Of a stretch of 64,000 bases of DNA, positions 3,031 to 64,000 are shown one piece after another; the stretch's first letter is position 1, and the number at the start of each line of letters is the position of its first letter. The DNA comes from Naegleria gruberi. Its lineage: Eukaryota. Made by a program: the position numbers and the translations under genes. The DNA lies in the NCBI GenBank assembly GCA_000004985.1, contig GG738884.1. One strand, written 5' to 3'. The notes below the pieces were generated by a model. That model was not told the origin of the DNA and did not search any database. It saw only the letters and a list, made by a program, of their open reading frames with translations.

Positions 3031-3565
3031 ATCTACAGATTTTTGGTCAACTAATCCAACATGATTACTATATGATTTTTATACACTTTGGTTACAATGA
3101 GTAGAGTGTTATGTGTAGTAGAACATGGAAACATGGAAAACATGGAAACATCCACAAGAAGAACAAGCTGGTACTCACTAGTTTCGTATTGACCTTATGG
3201 TTTCACATTTTGTAATAAAAAAGTTTTAACAAGTTGCGTTTTCAAAGGTATTACAATCCAAAAGAGTGAGGTGAATGGATATTGTTATTTCGATTTCCTT
3301 ATGTCGTTCATAATCATGAAATGTCATGATTATTTTTTTTATTGACATGTAAATGGTTCCAGTTGGGTTAATCGATGTTTCGAACAATATTGAGAGATTA
3401 CCTCTTGAATGTAGCTACAATTCATGATAAATCAGCTTCCATTACAAATATTCGTGAGCCTCTCCCGTGATTTTGATTTGCTTTTTTGGAGTATTACATA
3501 TTGTTTCGAATAGTTTCCACAAGTTATAATAAAAATCAAGAAAAAATAGAGTAACAACAATAATA

Positions 3566-5323
3566 ATGGATATACTCAAAGCCAAACTCAATCCTCAACA
3601 TGCTGGCATGCTGCTTAGAGACCAGGTGTTAAAAACAGACAAGGAATGGAATGTCCTCCCATCAGATTCGAATAACATTCCTTACTATTTCTTCTGGTTG
3701 ATGAATCCTGATAATCAAGCAGCCGCTCAACTGCAACATCGCTTACTCATCAAACAAGCAACTACTCCACAAGAACTCTCTTATAACTCTCTATTAGAAA
3801 CTCTAAACGATAGAGATGACATTTACCATGATGAACAAGATTGGTTTCAGAGAGAATTATACGATTTAGATGTTCAGAAGGAGAATCTCAATGAATACTT
3901 TTACTACTTTCAAAAGCATACGACTAAGAGTATGTTGAAGGTGCATGAAAACGTTCATGATAGATGGGCACAGTTTTCTCGAGTGGTTAGGGAACCAACA
4001 GCAAACGAAAGTCAACTAAACATATTCGAAACCTCAAAATTCACTCCCATGCAAAGTATGAATAATAGATCCCACTTTATTGTTGCGCTGAAGATATTGG
4101 ACACTGAATATCATGCACAGAATCCTACAATGCCACCAAAATATAACTCTGTTGGTCATGTTGCCTTCTCTGTAAAAGATCTATACATTGATGGGAAAGT
4201 TTACAAAGTTGGGTTGGCTGGTTCTGGATGGTGTGCTCAGAAATACCGTACCCAATGTCCATCTATCAAGTTTAGTGCATGGTTTATGAAGATTCTAATG
4301 ATGATTCACATGAATATTCGTTACTGCTATGCCCATGTCTTTGCTGAAAATTCGAAAAGTTTCGGTTACATTGCAAAGAGTGGAATGGCTGCAACAAGAT
4401 TTCGTTTAAAGTATTTAGGTTTCAATTTGAGTTTAGAAGATCATGTCAACATTTCTTCCTTTGACTCTCAAAAACAATTGCAAAACAAGGCAACTCCTCA
4501 ATTGACCGATCTTCACAAGGTCCAATCTTTGGAAGAATACAAAACTCTGATGGACAAAATCTATGGGAAATCCAATTTCCTCATCACACACTTGGACAAC
4601 ATCTTTTACCATCCATTCTTTGCTGGATGTTTCATTGACGAGAAGGCACAAGCTTCCTTCCAAGTATGGAAATGTAAATATGCCACCGATCAAAAGACAA
4701 ACACTCAAATTCCAGCATTCATCATCTTTAACACTGTACATTTATCACAATGTGATATTCCACTCACTTCTCAACAAGGTGATCAACTCATGCACTCCAT
4801 TCGTGAGTCACTCATTCCACAACTTGTCAAACAAGATACCAAACTTGTCAATTTAGCATTTGCCACTCATGGCGGATCCATTTATCAATATCTATTGAGA
4901 AATTACTCCCATTTAGAGAGTATTTCATTTGCCTCATTGTACTATACCTTTCAGGATAACTTTAAATTGGCTGGCTTGACTAAGAGAGCTCAGCAAACAT
5001 CTCTTGATCCAGTTTCGAAATTCCTCATGCCATCTCAACAAGATTCTAATGAAGAAGAAGCAACAGGTCAACAAGAACAACATATGGAGAGGAATCTCTT
5101 TTTGGATATCAGAGATTGCACTGGTAAGCCAATGGTATGGTCGGAGGAAATTAAGGAAACTGAGATGGCCACAATCAAACATGTTTCATTGTCTGCATCT
5201 GGCATTGTTGATAGAACAGCAAGACTTGCTGATCAATTGGCTACTAGTAAGAGTACTCCTCCTCCTCCAATTGCTGTATCTTCTCCATTCACTTCACATT
5301 CATTGTTTGCCTCCAAATTGTAA
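3566..5323 (+). CDS. hypothetical protein, 585 aa
   Basis: Long ATG-initiated ORF with ordinary codon usage. No domain recognised with confidence; a weak alpha-kinase-like impression was not trusted. Confidence 0.4.
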   Translation: MDILKAKLNPQHAGMLLRDQVLKTDKEWNVLPSDSNNIPYYFFWLMNPDNQAAAQLQHRLLIKQATTPQELSYNSLLETLNDRDDIYHDEQDWFQRELYDLDVQKENLNEYFYYFQKHTTKSMLKVHENVHDRWAQFSRVVREPTANESQLNIFETSKFTPMQSMNNRSHFIVALKILDTEYHAQNPTMPPKYNSVGHVAFSVKDLYIDGKVYKVGLAGSGWCAQKYRTQCPSIKFSAWFMKILMMIHMNIRYCYAHVFAENSKSFGYIAKSGMAATRFRLKYLGFNLSLEDHVNISSFDSQKQLQNKATPQLTDLHKVQSLEEYKTLMDKIYGKSNFLITHLDNIFYHPFFAGCFIDEKAQASFQVWKCKYATDQKTNTQIPAFIIFNTVHLSQCDIPLTSQQGDQLMHSIRESLIPQLVKQDTKLVNLAFATHGGSIYQYLLRNYSHLESISFASLYYTFQDNFKLAGLTKRAQQTSLDPVSKFLMPSQQDSNEEEATGQQEQHMERNLFLDIRDCTGKPMVWSEEIKETEMATIKHVSLSASGIVDRTARLADQLATSKSTPPPPIAVSSPFTSHSLFASKL

Positions 5324-48837: not shown

Positions 48838-48911
48838 TTAATAATAATAATAATGGAAAATATCAAGCAGCCGATTCCGATGATGAACATGAAGAAGATT
48901 TGCAGAGTTTC

Positions 48912-51900
48912 ATGTTGGAGAGTAGTACTGAACCGAATATGATCATCGGATCGGCACGAGTTGAAGCAGATGATGATGATCACCATCAAGAACCCTATAA
49001 ACAATACTTGTCATCAATTTTAGATGAAATTTCGGATGAATCATCCAATGATGATGAAAGTGGTGTCGATGAACAAAATCAACAAAAGAGAAATGGAGCA
49101 GCAGCATTGGTGAACAAACAAGCAACAAGTAAGAAACGAAAAATTACTGTAAAAACAATATTGAGAGATGATGGACCAACACAAATGGTTACTACAGGTG
49201 CTAGTGGCCATAAACAACAAGAAGATAATGATGACAATTACTACTCGGATGAATTTATGGAAGAGGAGAATGAAGCAATTTTCATGTCAAATCCGTATGC
49301 TTCATTGATGCCCTCCTCATCCAACAGCACACCAACAACAACATTGGAAAACAATGAAAAACAAAGGAAACCAAATTCGAATACTGCAAACACTGGTGGA
49401 CAACAATCACTCTACTTTTCACCGTCGAATATTTTGTTGGATATGAAATTAGAAGATTCTGAACGATTTGAAATTCTAAAGCAAGCCAGTGTTTTGGAAC
49501 AGACTAAATATCAATTGCAGAAATTGTTCATTCCCTATGATCCATCGAATAAGAGAGCTTCATTGAATAATCAACAACTTTCGAATAATCATCATGTAAC
49601 TCATCATCACCATCATCATGGAAGAAAACATCAAGATTTGGTAACAGTTCTCACAGTACCATCCGAAGAGGAATATGAAAAGAAAAAGATACTCCTGAGA
49701 ACTCTTCGTGTTAAGCACACTGACAAGGTCATTGACTCAATTTTAAATTCACCACATTCTTCAGCAGTTTCTTCTTCTTCTTCTGATAATGAGGAAGAGG
49801 ACTACAGAGGTAATGAAATTGCAAATATTGTAAAACATGCCAGAAACAACAAGTTTGACTCTGATGATGACAATTTATCCACTTCAACAACTTCTGAAAT
49901 GGGATCGGACTATATTCACAATCTCATCAATAATGGTGATATAGAAGATGATGATTCATTGGCATCAGATGATTATGATCCAGAGGCACTTCAACAAGGA
50001 TCAATCAGTCGTCAAAATTCCTCACAACAATTAGTCAAAAATACTGAGGAAGCTAGAGCTCTGATAACAGCCATGAGAAAGAAGAATATCAAGGATTTGA
50101 AGGAATTCAATTCTATTGATAATTGGAAAGATTATTATGGAGGGGTAGTGGCTCACAACCTGTCCATGATTAAGCTCGACATGATCAAATCAATTAATGA
50201 ATATTTGGAGTTGCATCGTCAAGAAATTGGTATTTGTAAAGTAATCAAAGTTTCCTCTACCATTTTGGCTATTGGTACATCTAATGGAACAACAGTTATA
50301 TTTTCCAATAGCAGCAGTAAGGTAGCTCACTTGAAATTGACCAAACAAGGAAAGGGAACACCAACAAAGAATCCACAACCAATTGTAAATCAATATAACA
50401 GTGTAACTTGTATGGATATTACATCGACAGGAAATTACGTTGTTTGTGGCTATGAATACGGTGATATAGCCTTTTGGAGTATTCAAAATGGTGGTGAGTT
50501 AATCAAGAGAATTAATGGTAAAGGAGAGGAAAATGTAAATAGTAATAGTTCAGAGTTCATGACACCAGTAGATAATATTCAATTTGTAAAAAATAATCCT
50601 TTCAAGGTACTTGTTTCTAGTCAAGGAGCTGTCAAGTTGATAACACTCAAGGAAAAGTTAATCAAATTGGGAGGAAATTCATACGTGTATGATAGTTTAC
50701 GAGTCACTGATGACAATTTTGATAGAGTAGTCGATGTGAAAATTCTTGCAGAAGGAGAAGCTTATCACGCTAGTAATGATTACCTTGTTGTTGCTATGGC
50801 AACAAGTATGGGAGTTTTTGTAATGGCTCTTGAACCATTCGTAAAGATTCTTTGCTTTTTATCTAAACCTGAGGAAGTTTCTCCAACCACACTTCCCTAT
50901 CTGTCTTGGAGAAAAGTTTTGGCTCCAATTCAGCTGGCAACCTCCCACGAAACTACACTCAACCAAATTTTAAGACTCAATAAGACTAAACCACCTCTGT
51001 TAGCTATTGCTTGGGGTAATATTTTGAATATTTTCCAATTGGAGGTGGAACCTCAACCAAAAGGATCAGTTCCAAACGACAGTGTAAATAGTGAAATGTT
51101 CAGAGTTTCATGTATGGAATTTAAGAATGATTTGATTGGAGCATTATGGTGTGGAGAGCAAGTCATGCTTTTATTGGACAGAGAGCATCAACTGCTTGTT
51201 GTTGATCCATTCGCAACAAAGAATGTCGAAGAGAGAAAGATTACATTCGAAATACCAACAAAAGCTACACAGGAGAAGGTAATTTCAACTCACCACCTAA
51301 CCTATCACTCCAGATTCGATGTAAAGAGTAATGATGGAAAATTTACTCTCCATCCTGTTCCATCTTTTCATTCTACTCTTTGTACTAGAGCTTCATCTGT
51401 TGATGGAGTTGCCTATTTATTGTGTGATAACGATATGAATATTAATAATCAAGTTGTTATCACTGTAAAAGTGTTGAGTTGGAAGGAAAGAATTGATCAG
51501 CTATTGGATATGGGATCTTGGAATCATGCACTCAAGATGGCTCTCAATTTCTATCAAGGAAGAGGTATTGCTGTTATTGGTCTGCCAACCGATTCCAGTC
51601 TCAGAAAACAATTGGCTGGTGATGTTATTGGAGATATTTTACAGGGCTATGTAGATTATTATACTTCTCAAGTTAACACTCCAGGAGATCAAGATGAAAT
51701 GTCTGATAATGGAATTGATGAGTATTATACAGAACTTGCCAAGACATGTATTAGGTATTCGATAGAGATTGAAAAATCTGACAAGATTTTCACAACCTTC
51801 TATGAAATATTTAAAGGGAAAAACAAGGAACGACTTTTCATTTCAATTATTCAAGAGTATATCATCAAAGGTTTATTAATATCGAGCGAGTCTGAAATTG

Positions 51901-53342
51901 TTATTGTTCCCAATAATTTCGTGGATAAGATTATTCAACAACATTTGGAAATTTATCAAGCTTCTAACATGCCAGCTCTCGAGAATTTCCTTCTTTGCTT
52001 GGAATATAATGATCATTTGAGTACGGATGAGTATGCCAATGTAGAATTTTGCAAACAATTAATTGAAAAGTGTATTAGACTGAGAATGTTCAAAGCCATG
52101 GTTATTATTTACAATAAGGGATTGGACGACTATGTTACTCCGCTTAAAGAATTATTGACCATTGTTTTTGATCCAAATAATAATTCGCAAGGAGACAGGC
52201 CTGCATGTATTGAGTTGGTTTTCGAATATTTGGAAAAGCTATTCATTCAAGGAACTTCCATTACGAATAATCGTATTTCTGCTGGACTTCTCTATGACAT
52301 CAAACTCCAAGTTTTGAATACCATCTTTAAAGCCAATGAGAATATTAGAGACCAATTCTCTAGCTCTGCAATGCCATTCAAGTCATCAGCGCTCTCTAAG
52401 AACTTTTCCTACAAGAAGTATTACATGCTCTCTCGGCTGCTCATCTTATCTGCCAAGAGATTCTTTGCTTGGTTAGAAAAGGTCAACAATGATAGTTCTT
52501 CATCTAGTTTATGGTACTCTACTGAGGAAAAGGAGGTTTTAGCTCATCCACTATTCAAGCCAATCACCAAACAAGAGTTAACGAATTGTTTGATTTATAT
52601 TTTCAGCTACTTGTCTGGAATTGAAAATCCTTTCTCTCCGTGGGAAATGAAAACAAAGAAATTTACCATAGAGGAGGAACAATCACCACAAGCACATTGG
52701 GCTCCAAATCTAGAAGATACTGTCTACTTTTCATTATTCTTAGCTGAACAATTGTCCAAGTCTGGAAAACAAGCTATTGATAAGAATTCAATCTTTGTCT
52801 CTGTGGATACTCTTCATAGAATTTTTTCCACGTTATGTTATGAAGGAAACTTGTTTGATGATGATATTGCCACCACACAATTGGAACTGGTTGAAATTTT
52901 AACCAATGCTCATCATATTATTGACAGAGACATTTCAAAGGAGCTAATTAACATTGAAGAGCTGATAACATCATGTAGAAATTCCAGATTTCACAAGGTC
53001 CTCATATATCTCTACTCTTTGAAAGGAGATTACGAAAAGTTATTGGATGCCTATTTGGCAGATAAGGAGTTACGTGGTGGAGTTTTTACATTCATCAACA
53101 ATCTCACCAAAGTAGAATCGAACTATACAAGTAAGGAAAATAGCTCACTCTTCAATCTTTCAGAGAAGAATCTTCTCAATAAGGAGCAAATCTATTCTAG
53201 AATCAAAATAGCCACCATCAACCATCTCTCACAGCTCATTGAATGTGACAGTGATGCCACAGCTCACTTGATTATTATGCATTTGGAAATACAAGCGATT
53301 CAATGCATGAATTATGAAACGAAAGGGTCTCACATTGGATAG
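48912..53342 (+). CDS. N-terminal and middle part (~1476 aa) of a VPS8-like CORVET/HOPS-type tethering subunit, with an acidic/S-rich N-terminal extension, beta-propeller and alpha-solenoid. Probably continuous with the next ORF.
   Basis: The ORF-track start at 48900 is TTG; the first ATG is at 48912. WD-like propeller blades (ILAIGTSNGTTVIFS...; VTCMDITSTGNYVVCGYEYGDIAFWSIQNGGEL; VLVSSQGAVKLITL) precede long helical repeats. The ORF ends at TAG 53340-53342, 29 nt inside the start of the next ORF. Confidence 0.45.
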   Translation: MLESSTEPNMIIGSARVEADDDDHHQEPYKQYLSSILDEISDESSNDDESGVDEQNQQKRNGAAALVNKQATSKKRKITVKTILRDDGPTQMVTTGASGHKQQEDNDDNYYSDEFMEEENEAIFMSNPYASLMPSSSNSTPTTTLENNEKQRKPNSNTANTGGQQSLYFSPSNILLDMKLEDSERFEILKQASVLEQTKYQLQKLFIPYDPSNKRASLNNQQLSNNHHVTHHHHHHGRKHQDLVTVLTVPSEEEYEKKKILLRTLRVKHTDKVIDSILNSPHSSAVSSSSSDNEEEDYRGNEIANIVKHARNNKFDSDDDNLSTSTTSEMGSDYIHNLINNGDIEDDDSLASDDYDPEALQQGSISRQNSSQQLVKNTEEARALITAMRKKNIKDLKEFNSIDNWKDYYGGVVAHNLSMIKLDMIKSINEYLELHRQEIGICKVIKVSSTILAIGTSNGTTVIFSNSSSKVAHLKLTKQGKGTPTKNPQPIVNQYNSVTCMDITSTGNYVVCGYEYGDIAFWSIQNGGELIKRINGKGEENVNSNSSEFMTPVDNIQFVKNNPFKVLVSSQGAVKLITLKEKLIKLGGNSYVYDSLRVTDDNFDRVVDVKILAEGEAYHASNDYLVVAMATSMGVFVMALEPFVKILCFLSKPEEVSPTTLPYLSWRKVLAPIQLATSHETTLNQILRLNKTKPPLLAIAWGNILNIFQLEVEPQPKGSVPNDSVNSEMFRVSCMEFKNDLIGALWCGEQVMLLLDREHQLLVVDPFATKNVEERKITFEIPTKATQEKVISTHHLTYHSRFDVKSNDGKFTLHPVPSFHSTLCTRASSVDGVAYLLCDNDMNINNQVVITVKVLSWKERIDQLLDMGSWNHALKMALNFYQGRGIAVIGLPTDSSLRKQLAGDVIGDILQGYVDYYTSQVNTPGDQDEMSDNGIDEYYTELAKTCIRYSIEIEKSDKIFTTFYEIFKGKNKERLFISIIQEYIIKGLLISSESEIVIVPNNFVDKIIQQHLEIYQASNMPALENFLLCLEYNDHLSTDEYANVEFCKQLIEKCIRLRMFKAMVIIYNKGLDDYVTPLKELLTIVFDPNNNSQGDRPACIELVFEYLEKLFIQGTSITNNRISAGLLYDIKLQVLNTIFKANENIRDQFSSSAMPFKSSALSKNFSYKKYYMLSRLLILSAKRFFAWLEKVNNDSSSSSLWYSTEEKEVLAHPLFKPITKQELTNCLIYIFSYLSGIENPFSPWEMKTKKFTIEEEQSPQAHWAPNLEDTVYFSLFLAEQLSKSGKQAIDKNSIFVSVDTLHRIFSTLCYEGNLFDDDIATTQLELVEILTNAHHIIDRDISKELINIEELITSCRNSRFHKVLIYLYSLKGDYEKLLDAYLADKELRGGVFTFINNLTKVESNYTSKENSSLFNLSEKNLLNKEQIYSRIKIATINHLSQLIECDSDATAHLIIMHLEIQAIQCMNYETKGSHIG

Positions 53343-55719
53343 AAATACTCACCTCAAATACTTCCAATTGTTGTGTGAATNTGAACCAAAATCTGTGTAT
53401 ACCTACGTATCTTCACAGAGGGATTATCCTCTCGATGAATGTCTCAAATTCTGTAGACAGCACAATATTTTGGATGCAACCTCTTATCTGTTAGAAAGAG
53501 GTGGAGATGTTGTTGGAGCTGTTAAACTTTACTTGGAAAAGGTTGATGAAAAGTTGAGAGAATTGTGTGAAAAATGTGTCTCTGAAGAAGATCGTTTCAC
53601 AAAGAGCATTAATTTAGCTGAACTACAACAAGATTATTACAATTCCACACAACAACAACCTAATGAAAATCATGATGAAGGATTGAATGGTCCTCCAATA
53701 ACTGATCTCTTTTACCTTCTCAAGGAATTTGATTCCAAGTACAGAAATTATTTACAAATCAAGTGGGAAGAATTACAACAACAACGAAAAATCAAACTCT
53801 CCAAAGTAATGGATCCAAATCTTGAAAAGAAACAACAGATTGATGATAAGGATGAATTGAAAGCTTGGGCTCAAAAGATGGTTTCTGTTGTGACAGCTTT
53901 CACAACCTCATCAGCTTCAGAGACTGACGAGTCTACGGTCGTACAAGACATGACAGCCATGATTGTTAGCCCTAATAGCTTATCCAAAGGAAGGAGAAGA
54001 ATTTTAGAAGTCCAATTCTATTCTAGTAGTGTAATGGGTATTCTTCAATCAGAAATTTATGAAAAGTTCAAGCAGCTAATTATTGAAATTGTCAACATGT
54101 GCAAGAGAAATATTGATAACGGTAGATTATCTGATAAGGAAGTTGAAAAATTGTGGTTTAATTTGTTGGACAAACTTGTGGTGCCGCTTCGTGAGTTATT
54201 CGAATCCTACTGTAAATCTTCAACAGATTGTGAACAAAACTTGAAAGGTCAAGCAGAACCTACAACAACATCAAAAAGCTCTGAAAAAGCAAAAAAGAGG
54301 AAGAAACATGAATCGAGTGATGATGACTCTGATGATGGAGAAAGGGATGCTCTGAACGATTCAATGACCTTTATGGATGGTCTCAGTGATGATGAGGATA
54401 TTACAATTGAGGAAAATATTAATGATCACAAGGAAATGATTGCATCATCAATTAGAGAAAAGGAAAAACTCCAAGAAAAGGTCAGATATGAATTTGATCC
54501 TGTAGTTACCAAGGAAACCTATGAGAAAATTAATAGAATTGAGAAAAGATTGGTTGCTTTACGAAATTTCCTTGCCGATTTGGAATATGAAAAAAAGAGA
54601 GAGGACGAGAGAATGATGAGAGAAGCAACTGATCCACTAGCTCCAAAGAATTTAAAGAATAGACCTAGCAACTTGTTCCTTCAAGTGTGTTTGCATCATT
54701 TACTCAAATTGGTATTCACTGAAATGTCCAACTCTTCATCAAGTATTCAGGATGAGAATGATGATTCACAATCAACGAGTATTGAGGAAAAACATCAAAG
54801 AGAAAAGAAATTTTCAGTATTCCACTTACTTCAACAAGCTGCCAAGAATTACAAGAAGGACTTGTATGGTTACTTCAAAGAGCCTCTATTAGACATGTAT
54901 GACAAGTGTGGATTTGAGCTCATGCTTTATCACTCAATTAATAGATTATTGGAAAGTGACGGCTTCTGGCTTCACAGAAGAAGATTTAGAAGAACCAGAA
55001 GGGGTATAAGGCCTAAATCAAACTATTGTAGATTGTGTGATTGTTCGATTTATGATTTAGATGAGGATAACACAAAGGGTGGAAAATTGAAAGTATTCTA
55101 TTGCGGACATGCTTTACATGAACATTGCTTGGATGAAATTAATTGTCTCAATAGATGTCCTATTTGTTCCAAGATGGACACTGATTCAGCCATTTTGGAG
55201 AGCGACACAAAGAAATCATCTCATGAGTTGGAAAAGAAAAAGTCAATGACTGGTTCTTCTCTTCTACATAATGCCACTCTTGAGGTAAATCCTGACAATG
55301 GAGTTTTTGTCAGTGTGTACAAGAAACAGAGATGGCGTATGGTTGACTCGGCCATGCAACAATCTGTCAATGAAAAGGAACGTTTACTGGAAGAGCTCAG
55401 AAGTAGTAATAGTTTGACATCAAGATTCCAAATTCCACTCCACAGCTCTCTCAAAAAATCATTGAGATATGGAAATTATCAACCATCCACAGGTATTGGA
55501 TATTCAAAAGCTAAAAAGCAACAAGAACGAAATATAGTTCAAGAATTGGTTGTAGATAATGATGAAGCCAATCAAGAACAACCAGCCACTGCCACCAGGA
55601 AGAGTAGAAAGACAACTCTAGCAATTCAACCACCAACAGTCAGAAAGACCCTCAAATTGGACTTTATTCCAAAAGGTAAAACACAAAAGGAAGAACCTGT
55701 TGAGGAAGAAGAAGAATAA
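53314..55719 (+). CDS. C-terminal part (801 aa) of the same VPS8-like gene: alpha-solenoid/CHCR-like repeats and a C-terminal RING-H2 zinc finger
   Basis: HNILDATSYLLERGGDVVGAVKLYLEKVDEKLRELCEK is clathrin-heavy-chain-repeat-like, as in Vps8/Vps41. C-terminal CRLCDCSIYDL...VFYCGHALHEHCLDEINCLNRCPICSK is a C3H2C3 RING-H2. Overlaps the previous ORF in another frame; an ambiguous base n lies at 53381. Confidence 0.5.
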   Translation: MKRKGLTLDRNTHLKYFQLLCEXEPKSVYTYVSSQRDYPLDECLKFCRQHNILDATSYLLERGGDVVGAVKLYLEKVDEKLRELCEKCVSEEDRFTKSINLAELQQDYYNSTQQQPNENHDEGLNGPPITDLFYLLKEFDSKYRNYLQIKWEELQQQRKIKLSKVMDPNLEKKQQIDDKDELKAWAQKMVSVVTAFTTSSASETDESTVVQDMTAMIVSPNSLSKGRRRILEVQFYSSSVMGILQSEIYEKFKQLIIEIVNMCKRNIDNGRLSDKEVEKLWFNLLDKLVVPLRELFESYCKSSTDCEQNLKGQAEPTTTSKSSEKAKKRKKHESSDDDSDDGERDALNDSMTFMDGLSDDEDITIEENINDHKEMIASSIREKEKLQEKVRYEFDPVVTKETYEKINRIEKRLVALRNFLADLEYEKKREDERMMREATDPLAPKNLKNRPSNLFLQVCLHHLLKLVFTEMSNSSSSIQDENDDSQSTSIEEKHQREKKFSVFHLLQQAAKNYKKDLYGYFKEPLLDMYDKCGFELMLYHSINRLLESDGFWLHRRRFRRTRRGIRPKSNYCRLCDCSIYDLDEDNTKGGKLKVFYCGHALHEHCLDEINCLNRCPICSKMDTDSAILESDTKKSSHELEKKKSMTGSSLLHNATLEVNPDNGVFVSVYKKQRWRMVDSAMQQSVNEKERLLEELRSSNSLTSRFQIPLHSSLKKSLRYGNYQPSTGIGYSKAKKQQERNIVQELVVDNDEANQEQPATATRKSRKTTLAIQPPTVRKTLKLDFIPKGKTQKEEPVEEEEE

Positions 55720-55728
55720 ATTATTTAT

Positions 55729-57486
55729 TTACAATCCCATTGTTCCTCGAATTACTTCTAAACTTTCCACACGAGTCATGTGTCGTTTATCTTCCTCATC
55801 AGATGTGATAGAAGAAATGGCCGTGGTTGGTTCCTTATCTTCCTCATCAATCAAGGTTAGTTCTGCACTACTGCTAGCACTTGCCAAAGCTGTTGGAATA
55901 GTTGCAGGTTTGGAAATTTCCTTAGCTACAAAGCTGTCAACAGTAATAGTTTGTTTCATAAAATTCAAAATATCAGTAACTAATGGTTCATAGATATTAC
56001 CCATAGCATGTGAAAGTCCAATAATTGTAAAGTGATTAGTTCCTTCCTCGTACCGTTTGTATTTTACAACTGGGGATTTTGATTCATCTTCCCACAATAT
56101 ATGTCCATTCGAATATTCATCATAAATTTGTTTCAACTTTGTAGCAAAGCTCTCTCCCTGATCCTCCAATCCAAGATCACTTGCAGCATTTGCGATATAG
56201 AATGAAGGAACTGATTTCAAATTATGTACATGTCTGGAGAGGAAAATTCTTTCTCTTTCCACATAATAAATTGGAGAGACATCATCATATCGATCAGCAA
56301 CTCCAAAAGCTGGCTCAACAATGAATTTTCTAGTAAGGAAAATTCTATCAGCAACATTCTGAACATCAAACACGGCACCAACACAAATTACTGCCTTAAT
56401 TTTCTCTAATATTTGCCTGTCGAGCTGTTCTCTCTCATCAAAATCTTTGGATTCAGTTGTGTATGGATCCTTTAAATTCTTCAAATTCATTCCATATCTC
56501 AATAAACAGAGTGAAATCAAGTGAGCTCCAGCAGAGTGACCGAAAATTGCAATATTATTAGAATCACCTCCATACTTTTCAATATTATCTGTGCAAAATT
56601 TAAATGAAGACAAGACATCTTCGCATTGATCTGGAACAGTCTTGGCACCAGGAGCCAATCTATAACCAATCACAACAACCACACAAGGATACTCTTCACA
56701 AATTCTCATGGCCATTCGACTGTATGCATCAAACCATCTGTGAGTTCTATCACCTCTTCTCCAACTTCCACCATGACAAAAGAAGAGTACTGGCAGTTTG
56801 GATTGATCTTGTGAAGATCTCTTCACTCTAGTTCTGAAAATATTCAATTTTTGCTTTGGATCATCAGAATCAGCAATATACGGAACATCTCTACATGATT
56901 CCACTTCAAACTGTCCATTTCCAACTGTCACTGATATTTTTGTTGGTTCAGTTGATGATGATGACTTGTCAATACTTGCAGAGCTCTTTCTTCTACATGT
57001 CTTTTTCTCAGGTGTTGAAGTTGTTGTTGTATTATTACCACTTGTATTATTTGTTGCAAGTTGTTGTCCATTATTATTAGTAGTATTCATCGCTGATTTT
57101 TGTAAATAAATTTCCAAAGCTTGTTTTGTCGTTCTACACAACTTCCACTTGATATTTTCCTTCTTTTCCAAAATATGTTGTTCAAATACAGCTGTAGTTT
57201 CATTCATTGATGATGTCGGTGTTGGCACCTCATTCTCATGATCAAACGATTCCGAACCTAACATTATTTTCATCTCATCATCACCATGTCCTTCAAATTC
57301 TTCATCATAATCCACATGATCATGAAGTATGTCCACCGTGGATCCATCCTTCTCCTCCACCCCCAAATAGGTTTTCTTGAAAAAGGTCCACATAGCCCCA
57401 AGTTGATTCATTTTGTCTCCCTCTCTTGCAGAAACGTGAAGAGTTTGTTTTTGTATTTTTTTTGTTTGTCTATTTTTAAGTTCCAT
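55729..57486 (-). CDS. alpha/beta-hydrolase fold-3 esterase (prenylcysteine-methylesterase / kynurenine-formamidase-like) with a T/N-rich N-terminal extension, ~585 aa
   Basis: The ORF-track start at 57492 is TTG; the ATG is at 57486. VLFFCHGGSWRRGDRTHRW...VVVIGYRLAPGAKTVPDQCEDVLSSFKFCTDNIEKYGGDSNNIAIFGHSAGAHLISLCLL carries the HGG oxyanion motif and the GHSAG nucleophile elbow of the Abhydrolase_3 family. Confidence 0.75.
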   Translation of the reverse strand: MELKNRQTKKIQKQTLHVSAREGDKMNQLGAMWTFFKKTYLGVEEKDGSTVDILHDHVDYDEEFEGHGDDEMKIMLGSESFDHENEVPTPTSSMNETTAVFEQHILEKKENIKWKLCRTTKQALEIYLQKSAMNTTNNNGQQLATNNTSGNNTTTTSTPEKKTCRRKSSASIDKSSSSTEPTKISVTVGNGQFEVESCRDVPYIADSDDPKQKLNIFRTRVKRSSQDQSKLPVLFFCHGGSWRRGDRTHRWFDAYSRMAMRICEEYPCVVVVIGYRLAPGAKTVPDQCEDVLSSFKFCTDNIEKYGGDSNNIAIFGHSAGAHLISLCLLRYGMNLKNLKDPYTTESKDFDEREQLDRQILEKIKAVICVGAVFDVQNVADRIFLTRKFIVEPAFGVADRYDDVSPIYYVERERIFLSRHVHNLKSVPSFYIANAASDLGLEDQGESFATKLKQIYDEYSNGHILWEDESKSPVVKYKRYEEGTNHFTIIGLSHAMGNIYEPLVTDILNFMKQTITVDSFVAKEISKPATIPTALASASSSAELTLIDEEDKEPTTAISSITSDEEDKRHMTRVESLEVIRGTMGL

Positions 57487-57920
57487 TTTCAAAAAAGCCG
57501 AATTTTGTGCGTCCTTGTTGAATCAGCAAAGTTCTCGGAGGAAATTAAAATGGTGCGAGTGAGGAATAAACAGAGTTGACTCTTGGATGAATTGTAAGCA
57601 GTAAGATTGTTTAATATATTGAAGAAATATTACAAAATATTTAAAAATAAGGAAATTTTCCATCAAGATGTGGAAATTTTAAACGGGTAACCTTTGATAT
57701 TTGGCGGGAAATCAAAAAACTGTTGGTTCTAATCAAATTTGTTTCCTTTTAAAAATCTGTGAAAAATTCAAAAAAATGTCCAAACGAATGAGCAACACTG
57801 AATTACAGGTTGACAATAAGAAAATCAAAATGACTACTAATATCCTTCTCCTTCCGAAAGAATTATTGTGTTCCATCATGTCGTTTAATGATGGTTGCCA
57901 AACCATCAAGATGAGAAGAA

Positions 57921-57938
57921 TTTGGGTTTGGGTTTGGG
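57921..57938 (+). repeat. interstitial telomere-like repeat (TTTGGG)x3 at the boundary between the last gene and the subtelomeric block
   Basis: tttgggtttgggtttggg, identical in unit and orientation to the terminal array. Immediately followed by a small hairpin gggtaaatccattaccc. Confidence 0.7.
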
Positions 57939-58685
57939 AGACTGTAGGGTAAATCCATTACCCAAATTTAGTTGTCCAATTATTGAAAATTGACTTTTAC
58001 CAATATCATACTAGACGTTGTGTACTATACAATAAAAAAGAAATGGAATTTTAATTCACTGTACTTATTCAGAAAATCAACTCTGAAAACTAGTGTTTAA
58101 CTTTTATTTTTCATTTCCTAGTAACAAGTATGACTTGGAACACAATCATATCAAATATGATAGATACACATATGAGTTGACTATAATCACAAAAATATTT
58201 GAAAAATATAAAGTCTAGAAAAAGTTATAAGGCACTGCCTAAAACATAAAGATTTTTACCCTGTTGGGTCTGAAATTTCAAAGTTGAGTTGGAATGTAAA
58301 TTTGAATATATTGTAGATATATAGATGAATAGATGATATTTTCAATTAATCATGTTGAATCAGTATATATAAAAAGTTACATCTTGTCTAAAAATTAACT
58401 TTTCAACATTTATTGTACTGTAATATGAGTGTTATTAGAATCATCACCAATCTCATATATATGATGTATAATGATGATATTCACATTGTAGAAGTGTTGG
58501 AAGTATAACATATAATATCCTTAGTAAACTGTACTCATTCTACCTTAATTGACCAAGATATTGAGCCATACTATGGAAACACTATAACATTCAATCAAAC
58601 TCATAGATATTGTATTAAATATTAATTATAATCATATATAATTGAAATAATCATTATTGGATCCATATTCAGACTGTAGGAAGTC

Positions 58686-59042
58686 NNNNNNNNNNNNNNN
58701 NNNNNNNNNNNNNNNNNNNNNNNNNNNNNNNNNNNNNNNNNNNNNNNNNNNNNNNNNNNNNNNNNNNNNNNNNNNNNNNNNNNNNNNNNNNNNNNNNNNN
58801 NNNNNNNNNNNNNNNNNNNNNNNNNNNNNNNNNNNNNNNNNNNNNNNNNNNNNNNNNNNNNNNNNNNNNNNNNNNNNNNNNNNNNNNNNNNNNNNNNNNN
58901 NNNNNNNNNNNNNNNNNNNNNNNNNNNNNNNNNNNNNNNNNNNNNNNNNNNNNNNNNNNNNNNNNNNNNNNNNNNNNNNNNNNNNNNNNNNNNNNNNNNN
59001 NNNNNNNNNNNNNNNNNNNNNNNNNNNNNNNNNNNNNNNNNN
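58686..59042. other. assembly gap (357 N)
   Basis: Run of n characters. Confidence 0.99.
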
Positions 59043-61008
59043 CATGTTATATATGTAAATTGAAGCATTTTGATATCAGTTTTGATATTATAATATGATT
59101 TATTAGATATTATATATAGCTACTCTTAGTTTTTCAAAATTGACTTTGAGATTCCCTAATTGACCATATATATATGACCAATTGATGAAACTAATATCAA
59201 TCGACTAGATTTTCAATTGTGAACACAATGATATCAATAGTTATATGATTCATGATAGTTTAAAATTGAGTTGGTCAACTAAGGATAGGTCATTAAGGTT
59301 TGAATGAATTGATATGAAAGTCAATACCAATTATTGATATACCATTATTAATTGATCTATATATGATATTATAATTGAAAGATTTTAAAATTAATATGAT
59401 TTCATTATCTTGACATTCATTATTCTCATGATTACACTCCTGACATGTTGAATGATTTCAAATTGTCATGAAACTGATACAGTAGTGTTTATTCACCATT
59501 AGTAAGGTACTGTATCAATGTCATAATGATCTGTATAGTAGATGTTATTGTCACATCCCTGTAGGTATCAAGTTGATCAGCCATGTACCATATATGATAT
59601 GGATGAATGTCAAAATGATATAGATGTATTTAATTATCATGTATATATGTATTGGAAGTGAATTGAAGTGGTATAGATTTCTATCTTCAATGTTAGAATA
59701 GGTCAGTTGACAAGTTGAATAGTTAGTTCCATGAGATGATTCCACATTATATGAAATTGATATATATTGTTATTAACATGATTTATAAGGTGATATATTG
59801 ATTTGAAATGAATTTGAAATGTTTTCATTGATATTATAATTGTCTAATCTATTATATGAAATTAACTTATATAAGTCATTATAATGATGTAATATTATGT
59901 TATATTATGATTATATATTCAATTTGGAGTATATTGATATATAATCTATTGATTTATAATGAGTATTTATTGAGATAATGAATTAAGATGAATAAAAGTC
60001 AAAATGTTGGGTCTGACCTTAGTCGTGGGTTTGTTGTTATGGGTCCCCGCAAGGGGTATGAAGTCAATTGATTCAAGTAGAAGGTCTATTAATTGAAATA
60101 AACCAATGTGCAATCACCAAGAAACGAACCTGTGACCTCATGGTGTTGAATCCATGATTAAACCGCACCAATATGAAGGGAAGCAGAAATCATCCCTTAG
60201 TTACCCGTTAAGTAACTAAGGGAATCATCCTGCTTCTTCATATTATTAGTTTCTAGCACTTGTCTTCAATCCACTATGGATATCTCTTCATTTACTACTT
60301 GTAATCTGAGTTTCTGCATTCTGAACTAGGAATTATACTTGATTTGATGTCTGACACCCTTCAGCCATCTATGGGTTTGGAAACGTGTTGTTTTGATTTG
60401 TTTCTTCTGTGGCTCCATGGTCTTTATGATCTGATATAGGGTTATTAAGCGCCGTTTGGGTATTTTGTTGGTTTTTTTAGTAAAGTTTTAAAAAAAGTAT
60501 ATAGTTCTTATCTAGTTATCGAGTTGTGGTGTAAATGTGTTGTTTTCAAGCTATTCGAAAGTAGTAACGATTTCGATATTCCGTTACTTTGCGTCACTTT
60601 GCGGACGGACTTATATTCAATCAATTTGATTGTCATTCATATTGATGCGTAGAATTTTTGAGAGTATTTTTGAATGTACGTTATTTTTATCTACGCATGA
60701 ATGAAAAGTACAACAATGATCAAGAGGAATTGAGTCATGAGTATGATACTTTCTCAGATTGTTCTACGCATCAAGAGTATTCGATTCAGGATTCTATTCA
60801 TATATGATATTTGTAATACATATATTGAATTGGATGAGATGGAGTGCCATCTTGTTGTTAAAAGTTGAGTCGACATTAAGGTATTCAGTAAATTGATACC
60901 ACATGACTAATTAGAGTGATTATATGTCATTATATCAATTTCTTTGAAAACAGACTTGCTTCTGGACCTTTCAGATTTCTAGCCACATATGACAGATCAC
61001 CAAGTACT

Positions 61009-61375
61009 NNNNNNNNNNNNNNNNNNNNNNNNNNNNNNNNNNNNNNNNNNNNNNNNNNNNNNNNNNNNNNNNNNNNNNNNNNNNNNNNNNNNNNNNNNNN
61101 NNNNNNNNNNNNNNNNNNNNNNNNNNNNNNNNNNNNNNNNNNNNNNNNNNNNNNNNNNNNNNNNNNNNNNNNNNNNNNNNNNNNNNNNNNNNNNNNNNNN
61201 NNNNNNNNNNNNNNNNNNNNNNNNNNNNNNNNNNNNNNNNNNNNNNNNNNNNNNNNNNNNNNNNNNNNNNNNNNNNNNNNNNNNNNNNNNNNNNNNNNNN
61301 NNNNNNNNNNNNNNNNNNNNNNNNNNNNNNNNNNNNNNNNNNNNNNNNNNNNNNNNNNNNNNNNNNNNNNNNNNN
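61009..61375. other. assembly gap (367 N)
   Basis: Run of n characters. Confidence 0.99.
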
Positions 61376-62592
61376 ATTCAATAATAAACCGTTCTATACA
61401 TCATGTGTGTCATACAGAATGAGTTTCAATATTTAATATTGTGAACTGACTCTGTTGGATACCATCTCTATAAATATAACAAGATGAAAAGTGTCAACAT
61501 TCAATTACACATATGGAGTGTCACCATTGTATCATCTAGACAGATAGCATTTCAAGTTTTAGTGGAATTGACAGTCTAGATATTGAGATGTGTATTCTAA
61601 GGTTTAAGAAGTGTCACCTTCACTGATTAGTGACATGACTATAACAATTGAACATATGATTCTTGTATCAATAATTCATTGTTCAATGATTGTGATATGA
61701 TGGTAAAATTTAATTTTGGAAATATGATTCTTCCCTATTGACAACCTTAGATGTTCCTTTGTTGACTTGAAGTTATTGAGCCATCAACATGAAACTTTCT
61801 CAGATTGTTGTCCTCATCAAGGGAAGTGTATTCATGTTTGACACTTGTATGATATTTTGTAAATTGACTGAGATGGTATACAATCTATATGTTGAAATGT
61901 GACAATTTGACAGATTGTTATTATTATCATACTGAATTCAGTTCTAACAGTATGTAATTGATACCATATGTATAATAGAGTGATTAAAGGTATATGGTAA
62001 AGTTACAGGATGATTGGATGTACTTTCACTGATATGGAGTGTTCACTAGGATATATAAAGTGTTGAGATTGAACATTTACTGATTAATTTTATGAAAGTA
62101 GGGGTTGGTTATCGTTTCGTCCTCATTGGATCTTCATTATTACTGAAATACATAATCAATGATATACATCATTAAATAGGTTACAATCTCAGCTATCCAG
62201 TGGGCTATAGATTATGTATAGTTTCTTATCTAATTATTGAGATAATCAGCAATTCCTCCCTCAATATATTGCGATTTTACTATTCCTAGGGAAAGGTAAA
62301 AGAATGATAAGAAATTGATCAATAAAAAATATATGTCATACTAGAGATGATTTGCTATCGATTGGTGTTTCAACTTTGGATTTCACTAAGTAATTATTGA
62401 ATTATCACCGATTAAATATTTAGTTATTCTTGTTGGAAATCCTTGCTGGTAATTAAAGAGAGTTGATTCGTTCTGTCTTGGTTGTATGGAGGTGAGAGTT
62501 GGAGGTGAGAGTGCGGACGCACTCTAATTGTCGGTTGGAAAAGTAACATACAAAAAAAATGTTGTGATGTTTCCTCTCTCTTCCTCATTCAA

Positions 62593-62640
62593 TCATCTCA
62601 TCATATCATCATCATATCATCATCATATCATCATATCATC
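62593..62640 (+). repeat. microsatellite (CATCATAT / CATCAT mixed units)
   Basis: catcatatcatcatcatatcatcatcatatcatcatatcatc. Confidence 0.8.
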
Positions 62641-62854
62641 AGGAGTTGTTTCATAATAATTTTAAAAATATATATTGATTGGAATTATTTGGAAGATGAT
62701 GTTTCGGAATTGGAATAATATTTATTTGGAAGTTATTATAATGGTGGAGGTGTGGTGCCTTTGGCACTCACTTCCACCAAGTTGCAAAATTAATTGGAAA
62801 TTAGGATAGCTTTAATAATGTAATTGGATTGGATTGGTAGATGTATCATCTCTG

Positions 62855-62931
62855 ANNNNNNNNNNNNNNNNNNNNNNNNNNNNNNNNNNNNNNNNNNNNN
62901 NNNNNNNNNNNNNNNNNNNNNNNNNNNNNNN
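62855..62931. other. assembly gap (77 N)
   Basis: Run of n characters. Confidence 0.99.
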
Positions 62932-63646
62932 AAATCTGTAATATGAATGTGAAAATAAACTTGATATTCTATCTCTACACATCGAATGGAGCATTTTCAT
63001 GTATAATTTGTTGATTGAAGTGATATATTTGATAGACTTGGTCTGACTTGTCTTTCCTTTCAGTCAACCAACTTTGGAAAATCAACATTTACATTCCCAT
63101 GGTACCATTTCTAATTCTTATGATATGAAATTGAATTCTATATCACTATAGATCATATAAATCATTTTGGTAAAGTTTCAATAGGTGGTCCTTTTTCAAG
63201 ATTTCCATCCTTATCATACAAGTTGACCATGTGTGGTTGAGGGAAGAAATCTTTAAATATGAAAGTTAAAATAAATTTGATATTCGATGTTTACTCATCA
63301 AATGGAACATTTTCATATCAGGTTTCAATATGTTTTGATGAGAAACTCAAAAGTTATTGTTGACCTCTTTTACCTCACAACTTCCCTTTTCACTTGATAC
63401 TTTTATATGTACAGACTTGAAATATTGAAATTTCTTATGAGAGTGATTATAAATGTTGTTATTGATGATATAGACTATATAATCTCATTAAAGGATTTTG
63501 AAATTATTATCCTTCCTATGGTTTCATTTTACAAATTTTTAATCTTACATTATTTACAATGTTAATATTTTATAAATTGAAAAACTAAATATAATACATT
63601 GTTCTATTCATCATTTACAATCGAATGATATAATAATCAATAAATT

Positions 63647-64000
63647 GGGCTAGGGTTTGAACTTTGAAAGGTTTGGGTTTGGGTTTGGGTTTGGGTTTGG
63701 GTTTGGGTTTGGGTTTGGGTTTGGGTTTGGGTTTGGGTTTGGGTTTGGGTTTGGGTTTGGGTTTGGGTTTGGGTTTGGGTTTGGGTTTGGGTTTGGGTTT
63801 GGGTTTGGGTTTGGGTTTGGGTTTGGGTTTGGGTTTGGGTTTGGGTTTGGGTTTGGGTTTGGGTTTGGGTTTGGGTTTGGGTTTGGGTTTGGGTTTGGGT
63901 TTTGGTTTGGGTTTGGGTTTGGGCTTGGGTTTGGGTTTGGGTTTGGGTTTGGGTTTGGGTTTGGGTTTGGGTTTGGGTTTGGGTTTGGGTTTGGGTTTGG
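63647..64000 (+). repeat. terminal telomere array (GGGTTT)n, ~57 units reaching the window end, G-rich strand 5'->3' toward the end (right chromosome end)
   Basis: Perfect gggttt hexamer tandem array from ~63671 to 64000, with two variant units (ggtttt near 63900, gggctt near 63923). Degenerate lead-in gggctagggtttgaactttgaaaggtttggg. Confidence 0.9.

What the first reader, a model, noticed from the sequence alone, without database searches (positions are those of the whole stretch)
57921..57938. Interstitial (TTTGGG)3 exactly at the boundary between the last gene and the AT-rich subtelomere
Three perfect telomere units, in the same orientation as the terminal array, sit ~435 nt beyond the last gene. 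They are followed by the small hairpin gggtaaatccattaccc, and then the sequence becomes gene-free repetitive DNA. This looks like a relic of an older chromosome end or telomere-healing event onto which ~5.7 kb of subtelomeric repeats was later appended, or a recombination seed for subtelomere exchange. The ORF-track ORF 57701..57952 that contains it (translating it as WVWVW) is almost certainly not a gene.
Basis: partly seen in the sequence, partly recalled or inferred. Interest (0 to 1): 0.5.

Follow-up and report, generated by a model that had tools for sequence, protein, structure and literature searches.

The report
Short internal telomere repeat, Naegleria chromosome end
Three perfect copies of the Naegleria gruberi telomere unit sit about 5.7 kb inside a chromosome end, just beyond the last gene; this is an ordinary kind of telomere-derived scar, and its exact origin cannot be settled from this one window.

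Summary
The window is the end of a Naegleria gruberi scaffold. It finishes in about 55 TTTGGG units, the repeat already proposed as this species' telomere. (TTTGGG)3 at 57921-57938 is real and in telomere orientation. It is the only such block in the window and the only perfect three-unit hexamer repeat of any motif in 63.65 kb, so it is a genuine interstitial telomeric sequence (ITS).

It lies 509 nt upstream of the start codon of the last annotated gene, an esterase. It also sits at the start of the only long ORF-free stretch (about 6 kb) and at the point where gene order shared with N. fowleri and N. lovaniensis ends.

The ORF that reads it as WVWVW has no homologue, domain or gene model, and its codon usage is weak, so "not a gene" is supported. 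"Repetitive" is not supported within the window. "AT-rich" is only modest: 29% GC against 31.6% for other non-coding DNA.

The most likely origin is the stub of a former, very short telomere internalised when distal DNA was added (about 0.4). Telomerase insertion during break repair is a serious rival (about 0.25). This is a new member of a known kind, of low to moderate interest.

The parts
57921..57938 (+). Interstitial telomeric sequence: (TTTGGG)3, perfect, in telomere orientation
63670..64000 (+). Terminal telomere array, about 55 TTTGGG units with two variant units near 63900 and 63924; it runs to the end of the window
   Evidence: TTTGGG was proposed as the N. gruberi telomere in PMC3622300
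63645..63671 (+). Degenerate telomere-like units at the base of the terminal array (TTGGGC TAGGG TTTGAAC TTTGAAAGG). The internal block has no such degenerate fringe.
55729..57411 (-). Last gene: alpha/beta-hydrolase (BD-FAE / Abhydrolase_3) esterase, 560 aa, identical to an annotated N. gruberi protein. The ITS lies 509 nt upstream of its start codon.
57776..57952 (+). 58-codon ORF that reads the repeat as WVWVW (83 codons from a TTG at 57701). No evidence that it is a gene.
57947..57963 (.).
57919..57968 (.). Compound palindrome: AATTTGGGT (57919-57927) is perfectly complementary to ACCCAAATT (57960-57968), so one inverted telomere-like unit sits 22 nt distal to the ITS. P is about 0.004, a post hoc figure.
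57924..57949 (+). The only four-G3-tract (G-quadruplex-type) motif outside the terminal array, with loops of 3, 3 and 8 nt
57939..63669 (.). Distal ORF-free DNA, 29% GC, with scaffold gaps at 58686-59042, 61009-61375 and 62856-62931. It has only weak internal repeats.

Best explanation
The block is a genuine, non-coding interstitial telomeric sequence in the subtelomere of a Naegleria gruberi chromosome. The most likely history has three steps. First, the chromosome once ended here, about 0.5 kb upstream of the esterase gene. That end arose either because a break was healed by telomerase or because this was the original terminus. Second, the telomere eroded to a few repeats. Third, the deprotected end acquired about 5.7 kb of non-coding DNA carrying its own telomere, by break-induced replication or recombination with another end, or by end joining. 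This left three repeats trapped in telomere orientation.

Today the block probably does little. At most it is a weak binding site for telomere-repeat proteins, a G-quadruplex-prone spot, or a ready seed for telomerase if the end is lost again.

Shown here: the sequence, its orientation, its uniqueness, its non-coding status and its position at the boundary of genes and shared gene order. Inferred: every step of the history and any present function.
For: - The repeat is exact, in telomere orientation, and is the only telomere-like block and the only perfect 3x hexamer repeat in 63.65 kb.
- The unit equals that of the terminal array and the published candidate telomere of N. gruberi.
- It lies in the last 10% of the window. 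The only long ORF-free stretch (about 6.1 kb, against 1.7 kb or less elsewhere) begins within a few hundred nt of it.
- The distal DNA shows no residual coding signal.
- VPS8-esterase adjacency is shared with N. fowleri and N. lovaniensis. The genes that flank the esterase 5' side there (727/733-aa protein, RING, thioredoxin, KxDL) are absent from the window. In those species that side continues for about 105-120 kb to the contig end.
- The proximal junction is abrupt, as expected for de novo telomere addition.
- The esterase upstream regions of the two relatives carry no telomere-like motif, so the block is not a conserved promoter element.
- The region has three assembly gaps in 5.7 kb. The proximal 58 kb also has three gaps, one of them a single N. 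This fits DNA that was hard to assemble.
Against: - Only 18 nt remain, with no degenerate fringe of the kind seen at the base of the real array.
- The distal DNA is not visibly repetitive, and it could not be shown to be shared with other ends.
- N. gruberi is distant from the two relatives (about 50% protein identity). The shared gene order demonstrated is only two genes long, and Willaertia shows none, so the direction of change and the precision of the breakpoint are unknown.
- Both flanks of the block show a weak resemblance to one contiguous stretch 243 nt upstream (P about 0.02-0.04). If real, this favours insertion into pre-existing DNA.
- Among 25 unrelated metagenome contigs capped by TTTGGG arrays, only 2 carry a comparable block, so it is not a general feature of such ends.
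Confidence: 0.4

Rival explanations
1. Telomerase-mediated repair insertion (the short-ITS class). A double-strand break in pre-existing subtelomeric non-coding DNA was patched, telomerase added about three repeats at one broken end, and the ends were rejoined. The chromosome never ended here.
For: - A few perfect hexamers flanked by unique DNA is the signature of short ITSs shown to be inserted at break-repair sites in mammals (PMC2246262, PMC7215372, PMC6410037).
- Both junctions are abrupt and there is no degenerate fringe.
- Both flanks weakly match one contiguous sequence 243 nt upstream.
- GC content falls before the block rather than at it, so there is no compositional discontinuity at the block itself.
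Against: - The telomere orientation, the position 5.7 kb from the end, and the coincidence with the gene boundary and the end of shared gene order would all be coincidences.
- The flank similarity is statistically thin and was found post hoc.
Confidence: 0.25
2. Scar of a head-to-head telomere fusion or a fold-back repair. The G-strand repeats face an inverted telomere-like unit (TTACCCAAATT) 22 nt away, so the distal DNA would be an inverted piece of another end, or of the sister chromatid.
For: There is a 9-nt perfect inverted repeat, AATTTGGGT / ACCCAAATT, with P about 0.004 under a Markov null.
Against: - There is only one inverted unit.
- The inverted match includes two non-telomeric bases.
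- No longer palindrome extends outward, and the fold energy is unremarkable (z = -1.1).
- The statistic is post hoc.
Confidence: 0.07
3. No telomeric origin: a chance sequence or a small slippage product, possibly inside a real short gene whose product contains WVWVW.
For: - An 83-codon open frame covers the block, and the ATG at 57776 has an A-rich context.
- The peptide contains an LPxELLxxI motif reminiscent of an F-box; this is my reading, not a tool result.
Against: - My own rough calculation, not a tool result, from about 0.33 T and 0.17 G per base: an exact 18-mer of this motif has an expectation of about 0.003 for a genome taken as about 41 Mb, a size recalled from the published genome paper.
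- It is the only 3x hexamer repeat in the window, and it happens to be the telomere unit in telomere orientation.
- There is no F-box or other Pfam hit at E <= 1, no homologue anywhere, no gene model and weak codon usage.
Confidence: 0.08
4. The distal 5.7 kb is a telomere-targeted mobile element that attached to, or inserted into, the telomere, splitting off a short proximal stub.
For: - The layout of stub, several kb, then telomere is what terminal elements produce.
- An unrelated metagenome contig (L010) shows a 17-nt stub, then 5.6 kb containing a 796-aa ORF, then a TTTGGG array.
Against: - In the window the distal DNA has no ORF longer than 64 aa.
- Stop density is at the random expectation in all six frames.
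- There are no terminal repeats and no poly(A) tract.
- About 800 nt are hidden in gaps.
- L010 has no similarity to the window, and its ORF has no Pfam domain.
Confidence: 0.08

Closest known systems
Subtelomeric interstitial telomeric sequences, such as the TG1-3 tracts between X and Y' elements in budding yeast and the degenerate (TTAGGG)n blocks that split human subtelomeres into proximal and distal domains (reviewed in PMC6410037)
   Same: It lies within a few kb of the true telomere, in the same orientation as the telomere. It sits between chromosome-specific gene-bearing DNA and distal non-coding DNA.
   Different: - It is only 18 nt and perfect, whereas the known examples are tens to hundreds of bp and degenerate.
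- The distal domain could not be shown to be shared between ends.
- No adjacent replication origin or other element was identified.
Short ITSs inserted by telomerase during double-strand-break repair in primates, rodents and horse (PMC2246262, PMC7215372, PMC8537989)
   Same: It has a few exact hexamers, abrupt junctions and unique flanks.
   Different: - Those ITSs are scattered through chromosome interiors in either orientation, and each was proven by comparison with an ITS-less orthologous locus.
- Here the block is subterminal, in telomere orientation, and no empty site is available.
Fusion ITSs, i.e. head-to-head telomere arrays such as human 2q13-q14 (PMC6410037)
   Same: A G-strand block faces an inverted telomere-like unit 22 nt away.
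   Different: There is only one inverted unit, no array on the second side, and the position is subterminal rather than internal.
De novo telomere addition (chromosome healing) sites
   Same: There is an abrupt transition from unique sequence to perfect repeats, and the flank ends in T-rich sequence (..GAATTT) that could pair with a telomerase template.
   Different: A healed end is terminal and carries a full-length array. Here only three units remain and they are internal.

Membership tests
Interstitial telomeric sequence (generic) | Tandem copies of the species' own telomere unit | tested here: met
   There are three exact TTTGGG units, identical to the unit of the terminal array. TTTGGG was reported as the candidate N. 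gruberi telomere (PMC3622300). The organism was identified by a 100% protein match.
Interstitial telomeric sequence (generic) | Non-terminal, with non-telomeric DNA on both sides in contiguous sequence | tested here: met
   The block lies inside the gap-free contig 53382-58685, with 747 nt of non-telomeric sequence distal to it before the first gap.
Interstitial telomeric sequence (generic) | Not explicable by base composition or general microsatellite content | tested here: met
   Shuffles give an expectation of 0.01 for a 12-mer. It is the only perfect 3x hexamer tandem of any motif in 63.65 kb.
Subtelomeric ITS (yeast X-Y' / human type) | Within the subtelomere, in the same orientation as the telomere | tested here: met
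   It is on the + strand like the array, 5.73 kb proximal by scaffold distance.
Subtelomeric ITS (yeast X-Y' / human type) | Separates a distal domain shared among chromosome ends from a proximal chromosome-specific domain | not testable with these tools
   The N. gruberi assembly was not retrievable. Metagenome scans found no related DNA.
Subtelomeric ITS (yeast X-Y' / human type) | Degenerate repeats spanning tens to hundreds of bp | tested here: not met
   The block is 18 nt and perfect, and no degenerate units flank it even allowing up to 3 mismatches per 18 nt.
Short ITS inserted at a repaired double-strand break | A few exact units with abrupt junctions | tested here: met
Short ITS inserted at a repaired double-strand break | Flanks contiguous in an ITS-less orthologous locus | not testable with these tools
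   N. fowleri and N. lovaniensis have different genes on this side of the esterase, and their non-coding DNA is not alignable. There is only a weak paralogous hint.
Fusion ITS (head-to-head) | Two arrays in opposite orientation meeting head to head | tested here: inconclusive
   There is one inverted telomere-like unit 22 nt away (9-nt inverted repeat, P about 0.004, post hoc) but no second array.
Protein-coding exon (for example F-box) | Homologues, a domain match, coding-type codon usage, or a gene model | tested here: not met
   - No Pfam hit at E <= 1 apart from a below-threshold DUF.
- No word-sharing protein and no HMMER hit.
- The codon score is 0.068 bits per codon, the 10th percentile of real coding chunks, and 17% of spurious ORFs score higher.
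- It is not a called gene.
Telomere-targeted mobile element | Element-encoded ORFs (reverse transcriptase, endonuclease or recombinase) or terminal repeats in the DNA between the stub and the telomere | tested here: not met
   The longest ORF is 64 aa, stop density is at the random expectation in six frames, and there are no terminal repeats. About 800 nt in gaps were not seen.

The most novel reading that the evidence does not exclude
The block is the fossil of a terminal truncation or translocation in the N. gruberi lineage. The chromosome broke just upstream of the esterase gene and lost the roughly 105-120 kb that still lies on that side in N. fowleri and N. lovaniensis. Telomerase healed it at a TTTGG seed, possibly inside a gene whose 48-codon 5' remnant is the ORF at 57776-57919. 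A new subtelomere was later captured. If so, it would be a base-pair-resolution record of karyotype change in a heterolobosean. If the 8-30 nt after the repeats were copied from the telomerase RNA beyond its template, as in rodent TERC-ITSs, they would also give a handle for finding the unknown Naegleria telomerase RNA.
Probability: 0.1. Interest if true: 0.45.

Novelty: new member of a known kind. Interest (0 to 1): 0.25.

Why it matters
Nothing on Naegleria subtelomeres turned up in the papers searched. The only published statement found is that TTTGGG is the candidate telomere repeat. A trapped telomere stub at the boundary between genes and subtelomere would show that Naegleria chromosome ends are remodelled by the same break, heal and capture processes known from yeast, humans and other organisms. 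It would also mark a candidate evolutionary breakpoint relative to the pathogen N. fowleri. As a single 18-nt block of a well-known class, it is a useful annotation and a lead for a genome-wide survey, not a surprise.

Tried and rejected
- **Retrieving other N. gruberi ends.** Exact-protein look-ups of the esterase (two start choices), the annotated proteins P0001 and P0018, and the small ORF all returned nothing.
- **Metagenome scan with the telomere-adjacent 27-mer.** No match.
- **Metagenome scan with (TTTGGG)6.** This gave 120 loci, 25 of them with properly oriented terminal arrays. None resembles the window. Only L010 (17 nt) and L043 (11 nt, at chance level) have internal blocks. The JAESGV01 contigs belong to an unidentified organism and were dropped.
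- **F-box idea for the ORF (LPKELLCSI motif).** No Pfam support, so rejected.
- **Truncated orthologue idea.** The N. fowleri 733-aa neighbour shows no similarity to the ORF.
- **RNA genes.** There is no tRNA and no credible Rfam hit in 57000-64000.
- **Promoter-element idea.** The esterase upstream regions of N. fowleri and N. lovaniensis have no telomere-like motif, and no second block occurs in the window.
- **Pfam on six-frame translations of the distal DNA.** Stop-density statistics replaced this check.
- **Extending the synteny comparison.** The last protein search returned only the N. gruberi and Willaertia VPS8, not the N. fowleri one, so shared gene order beyond two genes could not be assessed.
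- **Literature.** No paper on Naegleria subtelomeres was found.

Full report
**Identity of the window.** The last long ORF (55729-57411, minus strand) is 100% identical over its full 560 aa to an NCBI "predicted protein" of Naegleria gruberi on a 363,092-bp contig. Its nearest relatives come from N. lovaniensis (53%), N. fowleri (51%) and Willaertia magna (45%). The VPS8-like ORF just proximal matches N. gruberi NAEGRDRAFT_58764 at 100%. The window ends in about 55 TTTGGG units (63670-64000, 98% matches). Fulneckova et al. 2013 found TTTGGG at N. gruberi scaffold ends and proposed it as the telomere repeat (PMC3622300). The window is therefore a chromosome end of N. gruberi.

**The observation.**
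- TTTGGGTTTGGGTTTGGG occupies exactly 57921-57938 on the + strand, the orientation of the terminal G-strand.
- Dinucleotide shuffles give 0.01 matches to a 12-mer of the repeat.
- No other block of two or more units, even with one mismatch, and no 18-mer on the + strand with up to three mismatches, exists elsewhere. The minus strand has only three chance-level 3-mismatch hits far away.
- Single TTTGGG and CCCAAA hexamers occur 14 and 12 times, about the number I expect from base composition by my own estimate, and are not enriched distally.
- It is the only perfect three-unit repeat of any true hexamer in 63.65 kb, so it is not one microsatellite among many.
- It lies within an uninterrupted contig (53382-58685), with 747 nt of ordinary sequence distal to it. 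An assembler could not have joined reads on an 18-nt overlap, so an artefact is very unlikely.

**The surroundings.**
- The esterase start codon is at 57411, so the block is 509 nt upstream of it.
- Distal to the block, 57939-63669 contains no ORF longer than 64 aa. Stop codons occur at 0.072-0.084 per codon in all six frames, against 0.083 expected from composition.
- This ORF-free stretch of about 6.1 kb compares with 1.7 kb or less anywhere else in a window that is otherwise 78% long ORFs. "Gene-free" is correct.
- "Repetitive" is not correct within the window. Self-comparison finds one 70-nt pair at 84% (62932-63000 / 63247-63316), one 89-nt pair at 75% (60729-60816 / 61775-61862), a hairpin at 60170-60244 and a few microsatellites. 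Nothing is shared with the proximal 58 kb.
- "AT-rich" is only modestly true. With N excluded, the distal DNA is 29.0% GC, against 31.6% for non-ORF DNA elsewhere and 35.4% for coding DNA. The decline begins near 57600, before the block. The 20% in the first profile comes from counting N.
- Three scaffold gaps (357, 367 and 76 N) lie between the block and the telomere. The 5.7 kb distance therefore rests on read-pair scaffolding.

**The ORF.** ORF 57701-57952 (83 codons from TTG, 58 from the ATG at 57776) reads the repeat as WVWVW.
- I noticed an LPKELLCSIMSF motif reminiscent of an F-box, but Pfam gives no F-box or other hit at E <= 1.
- No protein in the 5.8-billion set shares even three 5-residue words with it. 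N. gruberi's annotated proteins are in that set, so no gene model covers it.
- An exhaustive HMMER scan of 1.84 billion representatives gives nothing at E <= 0.001. For a 58-aa query this only excludes fairly close relatives.
- A codon-usage log-odds trained on 21 long ORFs of the window scores the pre-repeat part at 0.068 bits per codon. That is the 10th percentile of real coding chunks, and 17% of spurious short ORFs score higher.
- No exon-sized ORF follows it.

**The hairpin and the palindrome.** Perfect 6-bp hairpins occur 3.1 per kb, or 0.38 per kb with three or more G/C in the stem. The 91-nt region folds no better than shuffles (z = -1.1).

Folding did reveal something else. AATTTGGGT (57919-57927) is perfectly complementary to ACCCAAATT (57960-57968), so a single inverted telomere-like unit lies 22 nt distal to the block. 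An inverted match this long within 60 nt has P of about 0.004 under a first-order Markov null. The test was post hoc and I leave the feature unexplained.

The block plus the GGG at 57947-57949 is also the only four-G3-tract motif outside the telomere.

**Comparative evidence.**
- In N. fowleri (L001) and N. lovaniensis (L123) the esterase orthologue is flanked on its 3' side by a gene of about 3,100 aa and then VPS8. On its 5' side it is flanked by a 727/733-aa protein, a RING-finger protein, a thioredoxin and a KxDL protein.
- In both species the locus is 105-120 kb from the contig end, and the 5' side points toward that end.
- tblastx of both loci against the window finds only the esterase.
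- Shared gene order (VPS8-esterase) therefore stops in exactly the intergenic region that holds the block, and N. gruberi has a telomere 6.6 kb away where the relatives have more than 100 kb of genes.
- This fits a terminal rearrangement at or near the block, with three caveats. The species are distant. The demonstrated collinearity is only two genes. Willaertia shows no synteny that could polarise the change.
- The relatives' esterase upstream regions contain no telomere-like motif, so the block is not a conserved promoter element.

**Other chromosome ends.** The decisive comparison, with other N. gruberi ends, could not be made. Every exact-protein look-up for N. gruberi failed.
- A metagenome scan with the telomere-adjacent 27-mer found nothing.
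- A scan with (TTTGGG)6 returned 120 contigs, 25 of them with correctly oriented terminal arrays, and none is similar to the window.
- Among their 123 kb of subterminal DNA, one contig has a 17-nt block in telomere orientation 5.59 kb from the array, with a 796-aa ORF of unknown family in between (L010, 26% GC, unknown organism). Another has an 11-nt block at chance level.
- Such stubs therefore occur elsewhere but are not a rule.

**Interpretation.** The block is a real interstitial telomeric sequence. Four origins fit known biology (classes reviewed in PMC6410037):
1. A trapped stub of a former short telomere, the subtelomeric-ITS logic of yeast X-Y' junctions and human subtelomeres.
2. Telomerase insertion during break repair (PMC2246262, PMC7215372).
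3. A head-to-head fusion or fold-back scar.
4. Attachment of a terminal mobile element.

I favour the first (0.4) because of the orientation, the closeness to the end, and the coincidence with the boundary of both genes and shared gene order. The second remains serious (0.25) for three reasons. The block is tiny and perfect, with abrupt junctions and no degenerate fringe, unlike the base of the true array (63645-63671). GC content does not change at the block. Both flanks weakly resemble one contiguous stretch 243 nt upstream (P about 0.02-0.04).

The fusion and fold-back reading rests on one inverted unit. The mobile-element reading has no ORF or terminal-repeat support. A non-telomeric or coding origin is unlikely.

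Any present-day function, such as binding of telomere proteins, G-quadruplex formation or acting as a seed for re-healing, is inference only.

**Verdict.** The core observation is confirmed, with corrections: 509 nt rather than about 435, the distal DNA is not repetitive in the window, and the AT shift is modest. "Not a gene" stands, while "relic of an older end" is plausible but unproven. This is a new member of a known kind, of low to moderate interest (0.25). Its main value is as a pointer to a genome-wide survey of Naegleria chromosome ends.

Noticed in passing
window 57919-57968: AATTTGGGT (57919-57927) and ACCCAAATT (57960-57968) form a 9-nt perfect inverted repeat. This places one inverted telomere-like unit 22 nt distal to the ITS (P about 0.004, post hoc).
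   Followed up: partly
window 57924-57949: This is the only G-quadruplex-type motif (four G3 tracts, loops of 12 nt or less) in the 63.65 kb outside the terminal array. It is formed by the ITS plus the next GGG.
   Followed up: partly
window 57660-57690 vs 57903-57952: CCATCAAGATG..AATTT..GGGTAA occurs 243 nt upstream and matches both flanks of the ITS once the repeats and 8 further nt are removed. Significance is weak (P about 0.02-0.04). It would hint at insertion into duplicated DNA.
   Followed up: partly
window 60000-60600, hairpin 60170-60244: A GC-richer island (35-39% GC against about 29% around it) inside the ORF-free distal DNA contains a hairpin with arms of about 25 bp (80% complementary, 7-nt loop). 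There is no Rfam or tRNA hit.
   Followed up: partly
window 62932-63000 / 63247-63316 and 60729-60816 / 61775-61862: These are the only dispersed repeats in the distal DNA (84% over 70 nt and 75% over 89 nt). There are also microsatellites at 62487-62512 and 62592-62641.
   Followed up: yes
window 63645-63671 and 63900-63930: Degenerate telomere-like units (TTGGGC TAGGG TTTGAAC TTTGAAAGG) lie at the base of the terminal array, and two variant units (TTTTGG, GGGCTT) lie inside it.
   Followed up: no
L010 1-6142 (metagenome contig Ga0100402_1016031): An unknown AT-rich organism (26% GC) has the same layout: a 17-nt TTTGGG block at 437-453, then 5.6 kb containing a 796-aa ORF (2505-4895, no Pfam hit), then a terminal TTTGGG array. 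A tandem duplication of about 85 bp lies just proximal. It has no similarity to the window.
   Followed up: partly
L008, L030, L032, L043, L055, L078, L079, L084, L085, L103, L116, L121 (JAESGV01 contigs): At least a dozen 2-19 kb contigs of one sequencing project are capped by TTTGGG arrays. Some share subterminal DNA (L079/L103 91.6% over 1771 nt; L008/L084 96% over 518 nt). The organism was not identified.
   Followed up: partly
L001 12114-21605 and L123 12075-21359 vs window 55720-55729: N. fowleri and N. lovaniensis carry a gene of about 3,100 aa between the esterase and VPS8. In N. gruberi these two genes abut tail to tail, with no such gene between them.
   Followed up: no
window 53314-53381: The VPS8-like gene appears as two overlapping ORFs (48900-53342 and 53314-55719) in different frames, with a single N at 53381. 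The annotated N. gruberi protein is 2230 aa, so an intron or a sequence error lies here.
   Followed up: no
window 58001-62000: The composition tool counts N as non-GC. The apparent 20-27% GC of the distal region is an artefact, and the true value is 29%.
   Followed up: yes
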